Below are positions 12,373 to 15,254 of a stretch of 64,000 nt of DNA, piece by piece. Each line of letters begins with the position of its first letter. Position 1 is the first letter of the stretch. The position numbers were made by a program, and so were the translations under genes. The notes below the pieces were generated by a model. That model saw only the letters and a program-made list of their open reading frames with translations, had not been told where the DNA came from and did not search any database. This DNA is from a virus: the IMG/VR virus record IMGVR_UViG_3300017991_000052; one strand, given 5' to 3'.

Positions 12373-15254
12373 ATGGGTTTAGAGAAAGCTCTTTCTAGTG
12401 CCGTAGGTCAAGGCGGAGATACAATTATCCCTCAGCTTGCTGATCAGATAATTCCATTTATTCGTCAAAAGTCTTATTTAAGACAATTCCTACAAAGTTT
12501 CACTATGCCTACAGAAACATATCGTTTTCCTAAGTTAACACAAGGGAATTCTGTATATTATGTGGGTGAAGCTGCAAGTGCACCTGAGAGTTTAATGACT
12601 ACAGGAACTATCGAACTTAATGCTAAAAAGCTTATGGTTGCGTTAGCAATTTCTGCTGAGTTAGAAGAAGATGCTGTTGTTCCTATCGTACCGGTTGTCC
12701 GTGACGATATGGCAAAAGCATTCGCTCTTGCTGAAGAAAACGTATTCATCAATGGTGATACGACTCATACAGCGACTCAAACAGATCCTGCTTCTGCTAC
12801 AGAAGCGGATTGGTGTTTTACACGCCAATGTAAAACCCTGAAGAATTGCTGGAAAGTCTTAAAGTCTATCTACTACAACGTAATTTCTTATATAGAAGTA
12901 AGCGTGAATTGTTTGAAAAATGATAGAATTATGCAATTTGCATAAATAGACAATCAGCAGCCGAGCCCGAAAGGGAAGGTTCAGAGACTATGTATCGGGG
13001 ATGTTTAACAAAACATAAGATATAGTCCGAACTATATGGAGACATATAGAATTATCCAGAAATGAGATAATCTTTAAATAGAATATGGGGTTAAGATAAG
13101 AAGTCATGAGCTTATCGATGGAGCCCAAACTCCAAACCCCACCAATCTTTTGGGAGGTTGAAATGAATGAATTCGTTATATGTGAAATTTGTAGTCAGAA
13201 ACTAAAAAGAATTACAAATACTCATTTAAAGCAACATAATCTAACATTTAAAGAATATATTGAATTATACCCTAATTCAAATACAACTTCTAAAATTGTT
13301 AGAGATAAAATAAGTAAAAACGGAAAAGGAATAACAGGAAGAAAAGCAGGATTTAAGCATAACAAAAAGCATAAAAAGTTAATAAGTAATTTAATGAAAA
13401 ATAGAAAAATTACTTGGAAAGATAAGATAAGAGAGACAATTCAAGATTATTACGATAATAATACTTTAATTGGATGGAAAAGTAAAGAATGTTATGAAAA
13501 TAAGCCAGAATATATGAAGAATATATTCTATGGGAATGAATGGCTGAGTATTCGGTCAAAAGTTAAACAAAGAGATAAATTTATTTGTCAAGATTGTAAA
13601 AAGAAAGAAAATAAATTAGCTGTTCATCACATAATTCCTTTTAAGCATTACTTATTAAAGCACAATGGTAGTTTAGAAAAAGCTAGAAAAGACGCACATA
13701 AATTGAAAAACTTAATTACCTTATGTTTTAGCTGTCACATGAAAAGAGAAAGACGAATTCAAAAATCTATTTAATAGTAACAAAATTGATGTAAACGACC
13801 ACAGATTGGCGTTTAATGGTTTGAGAAAAGTTGCTTGTGGTACTCAGGTAGACGCTGGATCTGGTGCTCTTACTCTTGCTGATATCTCTACAGGTATTCA
13901 AAATTTAGACGTTTTCGGACGTGATAAATCAGAACTTCTGTTAGTTGTATCTTTGAGAGAAGAAAACACTTTGAGACAGTTGTTAGGTATCAACCTTGCT
14001 GTTAACCAGCTTGGATTAACTGGTACTGCACTTCCGGGTGAAATCGGTAGACACAGTAAATTACCCAATTACTTTGCCGATTTAAAAACTCGTAAATTCG
14101 GTGGAACTCCAGAAATGGACAATACCGAGCCAAGCCTTGTAATTAAATTACTCGGAAGGTGTAGAGACTATACACGAGTCATTTTAGAAAATATTTCTAA
14201 AATTGAAGATATAGTCCGAACTGCATATAAATCATTAATGATGAAATTGCAGAGCATAGCAGAAATGACTATGCCTCAAGAATTTAATATGGGTCTAAGT
14301 TTAGCCTAATTAACTAAACGACGGTGCTTGTATCACCAAGACCCACCTAATCTTATACAAGGAGATTAAAATGGTTGCAAAAGGTTCTAAATTATCAGAG
14401 GAAACAAAAAGAAAAATAAGTGAAAGTGTAAAGAAAAAGTTTAAAGAAAGTCCTGAAATTATTGAAAATGGTGTTAAAAAATGGAAAAAATTTTTTAATA
14501 CAAAAGAAGGAAAAATAATTTGGGAAGAAAAAAATAAAAAAGTTAGTAATACAATGAAAGGAATTAAAAAGAAGCCTTTCACTAAAAAACACAAAGAAAA
14601 CATAAGCAAAGCAACAAAAAGACAATATAAAGAAATGTTTCCTTGGGGTAAACGAAAATCATCAAAAATTCATTTAAAGTTACAAAAACAATTATATAAA
14701 TACACTGATAATTTTATATCAGAAGAATTTATAAGATTAAAAGAATTAGAAAAATGGATTTGTGTTGATGAACTTGATAGAAAAAATAAAATTGCAATAT
14801 TTATAGATGGCGAACATTGGCACGCAAGAAATTATAAAGATAATTATATTGTTCGACCTCTAAATAAAACTGCAAAAGAAATAAGAAATAAAGACAAGAT
14901 AGAAACAAAATGTCTTATTTCAAAAGGATATCAAGTTTTAAGATTTTGGGATACCGAAATTGAAAGTAATTTAGAACAATGTATTAATAAAATTCTTGAA
15001 GTAACAAAATGAAAGTATGGGGCGTTCCAGTTGTAGCAACAAACTTATTGAGGGTTAGTGATACTAATACTTCAGAAGCTCTGTTGTTAAATAGAAACGC
15101 TGCGGTTATCGGCGACAGACGTATTTTCACTATCAAGTCTTCGGATGAGGTATTGTTACGTTCTGACCAGTTGTTAATCGTTGCTTCTGAAAGATTGGCA
15201 TTTAATGCACAATACTGTGAAGCAATCACTAAGATCGTTAACATCGCTAGCTAA
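12373..15254 (+). CDS. Major capsid protein, HK97 fold, spliced: join(12373..12814,13789..14048,15012..15254), 314 aa
   Basis: Joined exons are in frame (442+260+243=945 nt): ...ATEADW-Y-VNDHRLAFNGLRK... and ...LPGEIG-KVWGVPVV...; IELNAKKL, FALAEENVFINGD and G.PV capsid motifs. Confidence 0.92.
13086..13160 (+). ncRNA. Three-way-junction/kissing-loop RNA over the RBS of the intron 1 endonuclease
   Basis: TGGGGTT/AACCCCA, GATAAG/CTTATC, TGGAG/CTCCA and CAATCT/AGGTTG stems; loops CCCAAA and TTTGGG are complementary. Confidence 0.7.
13163..13774 (+). CDS. Intron-encoded HNH homing endonuclease (Zn-finger plus NUMOD3-like plus HNH)
   Basis: CEIC..HLKQH; RDKFICQDC..VHHIIPF..NLITLCFSCH; start reassigned from 13106 to ATG 13163 after GGAGG. 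Confidence 0.9.
   Translation: MNEFVICEICSQKLKRITNTHLKQHNLTFKEYIELYPNSNTTSKIVRDKISKNGKGITGRKAGFKHNKKHKKLISNLMKNRKITWKDKIRETIQDYYDNNTLIGWKSKECYENKPEYMKNIFYGNEWLSIRSKVKQRDKFICQDCKKKENKLAVHHIIPFKHYLLKHNGSLEKARKDAHKLKNLITLCFSCHMKRERRIQKSI
14049..15011 (+). mobile_element. Group I self-splicing intron 2 in MCP gene
   Basis: P1 AAATCGGT/GCCGATTT; AATTCGGTGGAA, AATACCGAG, GGTGTAGAGACTA (14158) and AAGATATAGTCC (14206); terminal G 15011; P10 TACTTT/AAAGTA. Confidence 0.92.
14290..14368 (+). ncRNA. Three-way-junction/kissing-loop RNA over the RBS of the intron 2 endonuclease
   Basis: TGGGTCT/AGACCCA, GTTTAG/CTAAAC, GGTG/CACC and TAATCT/AGATTA stems; loops CTTGTAT and ATACAAG are complementary. Confidence 0.7.
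14371..15012 (+). CDS. Intron-encoded endonuclease (NUMOD3 plus Vsr/DUF559-like PD-(D/E)xK)
   Basis: LSEETKRKISES; VDEL..IAIFIDGEHWH..KDK..GYQVLRFW. Confidence 0.88.
   Translation: MVAKGSKLSEETKRKISESVKKKFKESPEIIENGVKKWKKFFNTKEGKIIWEEKNKKVSNTMKGIKKKPFTKKHKENISKATKRQYKEMFPWGKRKSSKIHLKLQKQLYKYTDNFISEEFIRLKELEKWICVDELDRKNKIAIFIDGEHWHARNYKDNYIVRPLNKTAKEIRNKDKIETKCLISKGYQVLRFWDTEIESNLEQCINKILEVTK

What the first reader, a model, noticed from the sequence alone, without database searches (positions are those of the whole stretch)
13086..14371. Covarying three-way-junction/kissing-loop RNA locks the RBS of both intron endonucleases
Seen: upstream of two unrelated nuclease ORFs (HNH, Vsr-like) is the same architecture: P1-AA-P2-GA-P3-P1'-CC-P4-AA-ATG. 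Stem sequences differ but still pair (GATAAG/CTTATC vs GTTTAG/CTAAAC; TGGAG/CTCCA vs GGTG/CACC). The P3 loop is perfectly complementary to the P4 loop in both (CCCAAA:TTTGGG; CTTGTAT:ATACAAG), and P4 covers the SD. The element lies 3' of the intron catalytic core, so the core does not explain it. Established: T4 intron endonucleases are repressed by simple RBS hairpins. Inference: this is a more elaborate modular translational switch, or a nuclease-bound RNA, that travels with endonuclease genes.
Basis: partly seen in the sequence, partly recalled or inferred. Interest (0 to 1): 0.8.

Follow-up and report, generated by a model that had tools for sequence, protein, structure and literature searches.

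The report
Self-pairing leader RNA of phage nucleases
A roughly 80-base folded RNA sits in front of selfish DNA-cutting-enzyme genes in a group of uncultured phages; one loop always pairs with the gene's own ribosome-binding site and another is always self-complementary, so it probably holds the enzyme down, perhaps by pairing with a second copy of itself.

Summary
Observation confirmed. Both elements lie in loop L9.2 of two group I introns in the major capsid gene, inserted together with an HNH or a Vsr-like ORF. 109 of 114 introns of this subfamily have only a plain hairpin there, so it is not an intron domain. I found 29 distinct copies in 12 related phage contigs, ahead of HNH or Vsr/EDxHD-type nuclease ORFs (some broken or unclassified), in L9.2, in P5-P6 loops or free-standing. 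All four helices covary. L3 pairs fully with its own L4/SD loop in 28/29 (24 different L3s; cross-pairing 29/812). Ten copies have TATAAT just before P1, so the T4-type bypass does not fit. Best reading: a portable translational brake, probably closed in a self-dimer; untested. No Rfam hit; the orphan motif int-alpA (RF02996) has a similar plan. This scan noted such leaders before on other DNA.

The parts
12373..12814 (+). Major capsid protein exon 1
   Evidence: Pfam PF05065; spliced product of 315 aa is open
12815..13788 (+). Group I intron 1 (core, P9, P9.1 with conserved loop at 13057-64, L9.2 insertion, 3' terminal motif)
   Evidence: RF00028 80.7 bits; splice sites inferred from P1/P10 pairing and reading frame
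13074..13082 (+). P9.2 5' strand of intron 1; pairs with 13766-13774, enclosing leader plus HNH ORF
   Evidence: duplex -6.9 kcal/mol
13086..13159 (+). Leader RNA copy 1: P1, P2, P3 three-way junction plus SD hairpin P4
   Evidence: 70.9 bits to model R1; training member
13104..13109 (+). Self-complementary hexamer TCATGA in the P2 loop
13124..13154 (+). L3 (13124-29) complementary to L4 (13149-54), which overlaps the SD (13153-57)
13163..13774 (+). HNH homing-endonuclease-like ORF, 203 aa
   Evidence: Pfam PF01844, PHROGs
13789..14048 (+). Major capsid protein exon 2
14049..15011 (+). Group I intron 2, same subfamily
   Evidence: RF00028 63.6 bits; splice sites inferred
14276..14285 (+). P9.2 5' strand of intron 2; pairs with 14990-14999
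   Evidence: duplex -10.6 kcal/mol
14290..14368 (+). Leader RNA copy 2
   Evidence: 80.3 bits; training member
14307..14312 (+). Self-complementary hexamer TAATTA in the P2 loop; its TAA also ends the exon-2 read-through frame
14327..14361 (+). L3 (14327-33) complementary to L4 (14355-61), which overlaps the SD (14359-64)
14371..15012 (+). Vsr-like (DUF559/EDxHD-type) endonuclease ORF, 213 aa
   Evidence: Pfam PF04480, weak PF03852
15012..15254 (+). Major capsid protein exon 3
   Evidence: Pfam PF05065

Best explanation
A portable 5' leader that keeps homing-endonuclease mRNA poorly translated, and whose lock is most likely closed between two RNA molecules. Shown by covariation: P1-P4, the L3:L4 loop-loop pairing and the self-complementary L2. 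Shown by sequence: weak P4 covers the 3' half of the SD and the kiss covers the 5' half. Inferred: full SD pairing blocks 30S loading. Inferred: L2 pairs with L2 of a second identical leader, and with P1/P3 stacked as one rod the L3:L4 kisses also form in trans. Repression would then tighten as the leader's own concentration rises: RNA-only, nuclease-independent negative feedback. That would suit a toxic gene inside the abundant capsid transcript and would keep ribosomes off the intron.
For: L3:L4 complete in 28/29 with 24 different L3s, against 29/812 cross-pairs; held-out copies 12/13. Helices: 92% of cells paired, 20 of 22 pairs with changes on both sides, 0/500 shuffles reach this. Palindrome: 81/81 cells paired, inner pair seen as A-U, C-G, U-A, G-C and G-U, 0/500 shuffles; background 1.7% per hexamer; the search patterns did not specify it. 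Two- and zero-nt spans cannot close inside one strand. P2 is 6 bp in 27/29. L4 is closed directly by at least 3 P4 pairs in 23/29, so kiss and P4 look built to coexist. P4 alone is weak (median -3.7 kcal/mol) and leaves the SD 5' part more than 90% unpaired. Crude geometry: with P1/P3 coaxial the cis gap is 34-47 A against about 21 A for a 2-nt linker; two P2-less variants with a straight 9-10 bp helix, 2-nt linker and 7/7 kiss have gaps of 27-41 A. A three-kiss C2 dimer has solutions when the linker is flexible. T4-type precedent for SD sequestration and its purpose: PMC2988022.
Against: The commonest palindrome is A-U only, about -0.4 kcal/mol as a bare duplex, so it needs cooperation or conversion to an extended duplex (-10 against -4). 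Cis kissing is possible if the junction bends about 90-120 degrees. The first rigid dimer model did not fit the strut length; the model is planar and crude. No significant avoidance of shared palindromes or cross-kissing within a genome (P 0.20 and 0.59). All copies come from one phage group and are related. Another nuclease of the window (21167) has no such leader.
Confidence: 0.5

Rival explanations
1. Purely intramolecular SD lock: the junction bends and L3 kisses L4 in cis (or forms a pseudoknot with P4 open). This gives constant low translation, or release by an unidentified factor or a terminating ribosome. L2 pairing serves something else.
For: Geometry allows it at a 90-120 degree junction bend. 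Cis pairing is kinetically favoured (general knowledge). In a minority of copies an upstream frame of 60 or more codons stops inside the leader (7/29). Earlier scan notes read such leaders this way (unchecked).
Against: It leaves the strictly kept palindrome and the fixed 6-bp P2 unexplained. P2-less variants cannot bend. Upstream stops are absent in most copies, and TAA is part of the junction and of L2 anyway.
Confidence: 0.27
2. Dimer as ON signal: the monomer is locked in cis, and L2-L2 pairing at high RNA level late in infection remodels the junction and frees the SD. This would give the late expression that T4 obtains with a late promoter.
For: T4-type nucleases are delayed to late times (PMC2988022). 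10/29 copies have TATAAT 4-8 nt before P1, so the whole leader is transcribed and some other release is needed.
Against: No alternative structure that frees the SD is predicted; strand exchange in P2 keeps the same junction. It requires the cis geometry.
Confidence: 0.1
3. Protein-binding site: the nuclease or a phage protein binds the RNA, or binds the P2 quasi-palindrome as a DNA operator (I-TevI-like autorepression).
For: Junction bases are conserved. P2 plus its loop is a near-perfect 21-bp inverted repeat in DNA. I-TevI autorepresses at an operator (PMC2988022).
Against: The same leader precedes unrelated nucleases. Stem and palindrome sequences change compensatorily and tolerate G-U, as base pairing does and a fixed operator does not. 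The 2+6+1 asymmetry is kept.
Confidence: 0.1
4. Ordinary group I peripheral domain (P9.x) that helps splicing.
For: Both window copies lie inside introns.
Against: 109/114 introns of the subfamily end with a plain P9.2 hairpin. Copies occur in P5-P6 loops and at nine places with no intron motif, always directly before an ORF start.
Confidence: 0.02

Closest known systems
Rfam RF02996 int-alpA RNA motif (orphan candidate RNA)
   Same: Three-way junction with a (C/U)-UA(A)-G first junction and a second junction starting GA; L3 with a CCUU-type anti-SD that matches a purine-rich 3' segment; L2 with a short ACGU palindrome in the consensus.
   Different: No copy scores to the model even at E 10. 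Ours has a 6-bp P2 with a 9-nt 2+6+1 loop, a 2-3 nt second junction (5 in int-alpA), a 6-7 nt fully paired L3 (9 nt in int-alpA), an SD hairpin P4 that the Rfam model lacks, and nuclease genes downstream.
RBS-sequestering hairpins of T-even homing endonucleases (I-TevI, I-TevII, I-TevIII, segB, Aeh1 mobE; PMC2988022) and hairpins before Vsr-like endonucleases in fractured genes (PMC2677866)
   Same: Same gene class, same position, SD paired; found with intronic and free-standing nucleases.
   Different: Those are single hairpins, bypassed by a late promoter inside them. Here there are four helices and two loop-loop contacts, and where a -10 box is seen it lies before P1.
HIV-1 DIS and oskar palindromic kissing loops; phi29 pRNA and bicoid head-to-tail loops (PMC7357161)
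   Same: Six-nucleotide self-complementary loop (the 2+6+1 layout of DIS is from memory); a pair of complementary non-palindromic loops on one three-way-junction RNA.
   Different: Unrelated sequences and functions (packaging, localisation). The palindromes here are A-U rich, and one kissing partner is the SD loop. Dimerisation is not shown here.
Riboswitches with a loop-to-RBS contact (preQ1-III, PMC7357161; cobalamin L5-L13, from memory)
   Same: A junction loop pairs with the RBS region; preQ1-III crystallised as a dimer with this pairing in trans.
   Different: No ligand-binding core is evident, there is no Rfam match, and the downstream genes are not metabolic.

Membership tests
RF02996 int-alpA | Score at or above the gathering cut-off (35.8 bits) | tested here: not met
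   No hit at any copy at E up to 10
RF02996 int-alpA | Three-way junction with UA/GA junction motifs and anti-SD L3 | tested here: met
   Consensus compared by eye with model R1
RF02996 int-alpA | Arm and loop lengths (P2 4 bp, 5-nt junction, 9-nt L3, unpaired 3' tail) | tested here: not met
   P2 6 bp, junction 2-3 nt, L3 6-7 nt, P4 hairpin
T4-type HEG RBS hairpin | SD of a homing-endonuclease gene paired in RNA structure | tested here: met
T4-type HEG RBS hairpin | Single hairpin with an internal late promoter that removes the anti-SD strand | tested here: not met
   Four helices; TATAAT before P1 in 10/29; the P3/L3 region, where a bypass -10 would have to lie, varies freely. A non-consensus phage promoter cannot be excluded.
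T4-type HEG RBS hairpin | Measured translational repression | not testable with these tools
   needs reporters
Group I intron P9 peripheral domain | Present in ORF-less introns of the subfamily | tested here: not met
   109/114 have a plain P9.2 hairpin; model R1 over the loci hit only nuclease-linked copies
Group I intron P9 peripheral domain | Confined to the intron 3' domain | tested here: not met
   6 in L9.2, 7 in P5-P6 (4 more likely), 3 upstream of a core, 9 with no intron motif
DIS-type dimerisation loop | Covarying self-complementary hexamer in a hairpin loop | tested here: met
DIS-type dimerisation loop | G-C rich palindrome, stable on its own | tested here: not met
   -0.4 to -5.1 kcal/mol against -10.9 for GCGCGC
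DIS-type dimerisation loop | Dimer formation | not testable with these tools
   needs native gel, SEC-MALS or FRET

The most novel reading that the evidence does not exclude
A self-sensing riboregulator: identical mRNA leaders assemble through three loop-loop contacts (L2-L2', L3-L4', L4-L3'), and the assembly sets SD access. A selfish nuclease gene would then measure its own transcript level with no protein, antisense RNA or ligand.
Probability: 0.3. Interest if true: 0.9.

Novelty: new variant of a known kind. Interest (0 to 1): 0.7.

Why it matters
How homing endonucleases outside the T4 family limit their own toxicity and avoid disturbing splicing is largely unknown. This is a compact, swappable control module shared by unrelated nucleases, with 24 natural L3/L4 variants ready for reporter tests. 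If the dimer reading holds, it would be a natural case of translation set by homo-oligomerisation of an mRNA leader; functional RNA oligomers are rare (PMC7357161). It would also suggest a function for the orphan int-alpA motif and give synthetic biology a protein-free dosage buffer.

Tried and rejected
A loose structural descriptor was too unspecific (59 hits in the genome; a first version timed out). Patterns taken from the two window copies alone gave chance hits only. The element pattern in bacterial and archaeal genomes gave 26 hits, none with the fold. Model R1 found nothing convincing in 12 cellular genomes and 17 other phage records, so this family looks confined to one phage group at this sensitivity. 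Rfam: no family matches the element. A true int-alpA member could not be fetched; only its consensus was seen. Literature searches found no description of the motif; Weinberg 2017 has no supplement held; subscription papers are not searched. Within-genome orthogonality of loops was not significant. Translational coupling is not general. No consensus promoter lies before the two window copies. A rigid planar three-kiss dimer did not fit; it fitted only with a flexible linker. The host is unknown: the nearest named capsids are only about 30% identical.

Full report
Setting. The window is part of a 152-kb uncultured phage record. Its major capsid gene (12373-15254) is split by two group I introns (RF00028). 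P1/P10 pairing and the reading frame place them at 12815-13788 and 14049-15011, giving a 315-aa capsid protein. Each intron carries a nuclease ORF: HNH at 13163 and Vsr-like at 14371. The two proteins are unrelated.

Observation. No Rfam family matches them at E up to 10. A short helix (P9.2) closes around leader plus ORF in both introns, so the leader is part of the insertion in loop L9.2.

Is it an intron domain? No. A pattern for this intron subfamily fetched 119 loci. Of 114 distinct intron ends, 109 reach the terminal motif within 75 nt through a plain P9.2 hairpin, and model R1 hits none of those ends.

Homologues. Relatives of the two nucleases carry the same leader with other sequences. 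Patterns fixing only junctions, stems and the SD gave 16 distinct copies. A covariance model built from them gave 13 more. The 29 copies lie in 12 contigs of related phages: 6 in L9.2, 7 in P5-P6 loops (4 more likely), 3 upstream of an intron core and 9 with no intron motif. Each lies directly before an ORF start. Of 26 ORFs classed, 7 are HNH-like and 15 Vsr/EDxHD-like; one resembles T7 endonuclease I weakly, and the rest are truncated or unclassified. No copy precedes a recognisable non-nuclease gene.

Covariation. Helices P1-P4: 92% of cells paired, 20 of 22 pairs with changes on both sides, above all 500 shuffles and all slid registers. The sequences are related, so these counts are not probabilities. 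L3 pairs completely with its own L4 in 28/29, with 24 different L3 sequences, 12/13 among held-out copies, and 29/812 for non-cognate pairs. The parser chose the best register, which the cross-pair control offsets. A fixed-column count gives 84% because two registers are mixed. The kiss covers the 5' part of the SD and P4 the 3' part. P4 is weak (median -3.7 kcal/mol) and leaves the 5' part open without the kiss.

The P2 loop is nearly always 2+6+1 nt, and the hexamer is self-complementary in 28/29: TAATTA 15, TCATGA 5, TTATAA 3, TGATCA 2, TAGCTA 2, TGGCTA 1 (with G-U). All 81 cells pair and the second pair takes five forms; background is 1.7% per hexamer. The inner pairs cannot form within one strand, so pairing between two RNA molecules is the simplest cause (inference). 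I saw this, before looking at the earlier notes that mention such loops. P2 is 6 bp in 27/29. Also, 10/29 copies have TATAAT 4-8 nt before P1 (background 0.08% per position), so in those the element is probably the whole leader of the nuclease's own transcript. The two window copies have no such box and would ride on the capsid transcript or the excised intron.

Cis or trans. The P3-P1 junction is 0-1 nt, which usually means coaxial stacking (general knowledge). Two variants lack P2 altogether and have one straight 9-10 bp helix, a 2-nt linker and a 7/7 kiss. In a crude planar model the cis gap is 27-47 A for straight or slightly bent rods, against about 21 A of linker reach; cis closure needs a junction bend of about 90-120 degrees. 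A symmetric dimer joined by all three kisses failed as a rigid ring but has solutions with a flexible linker. This is a plausibility check, not a structure. The A-U palindromes are weak alone, which fits a cooperative contact rather than a stand-alone dimer signal.

Mechanism. Shown: structure, gene association and SD overlap. Inferred: repression (about 0.8, by analogy with T4 hairpins and their role in protecting splicing, PMC2988022). Inferred: closure in a self-dimer (0.5 overall), and within that real dose feedback (0.3). Rivals: cis lock (0.27), dimer as ON signal (0.1), protein operator (0.1), intron domain (0.02).

Comparison. It works like the T-even SD hairpins and those before Vsr-like nucleases (PMC2988022, PMC2677866), but fails their defining single-hairpin, internal-promoter layout. 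An earlier scan note (e1-5355316) pointed to Rfam int-alpA. Its consensus has the same plan, but no copy scores to it and the arm lengths differ: a structural relative, not a member. Palindromic and head-to-tail loops are known from HIV-1 DIS, oskar, bicoid and phi29 pRNA (PMC7357161), not as SD control. No paper found describes this leader. This scan has noted kissing-loop leaders of nucleases on at least nine other windows. Those are unchecked notes, not support, and none shares sequence words with this one. One note proposes a promoter inside the leader; my copies do not show that.

Verdict. A real, uncatalogued RNA module; new variant of a known kind; interest 0.7. Its most novel reading, control by self-assembly, is directly testable.

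Noticed in passing
window 5490-5573, ORF 5574-6254: Sub-threshold int-alpA match (26.9 bits, cut-off 35.8) followed by an SD hairpin, ahead of a free-standing NUMOD3/EDxHD-type nuclease just before a portal-like gene. The protein is 49% identical to one that carries the full leader. Short P2, no palindrome: a possible link between int-alpA and this family.
   Followed up: partly
L328 1631-1597 and 935-899 (minus strand): Leader plus nuclease ORF inserted just after the anticodon of a tRNA-Met-like gene, with no group I core motif seen; the ORF ends inside the tRNA 3' half.
   Followed up: partly
L344 ~1501-1561; L346 ~1520-1580; L268 ~3620-3690: P2-less versions: one long hairpin whose loop matches the SD-hairpin loop, before nuclease-like ORFs.
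   Followed up: partly
L268 6111-6200; L142 921-1014: The leader begins in the last codons of the capsid gene, whose stop codon is the UAA of the first junction; a group I core motif follows the nuclease ORF.
   Followed up: partly
window 13806-14309: The exon-2 frame stays open for 87 codons through the intron 2 core and stops in L2 of the leader; the same offset occurs in L266.
   Followed up: partly
window 21167-21643: Free-standing Vsr-like nuclease without the leader, its start overlapping the upstream stop.
   Followed up: partly
L148, L144, L143 capsid genes: Related phages carry several (up to seven or more) group I introns in the capsid gene, with and without ORFs.
   Followed up: no
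window 13057-13064 and 14260-14267; L003-L121: A conserved P9.1 loop and a 3' terminal TAACA motif mark a large phage group I intron subfamily whose 3' domain the Rfam model does not cover.
   Followed up: partly
L014 7593-7669 (minus): Weak model hit (19.9 bits) in an unrelated GC-rich phage with a TGATCA loop and a partial L3:L4 match; may be chance.
   Followed up: no
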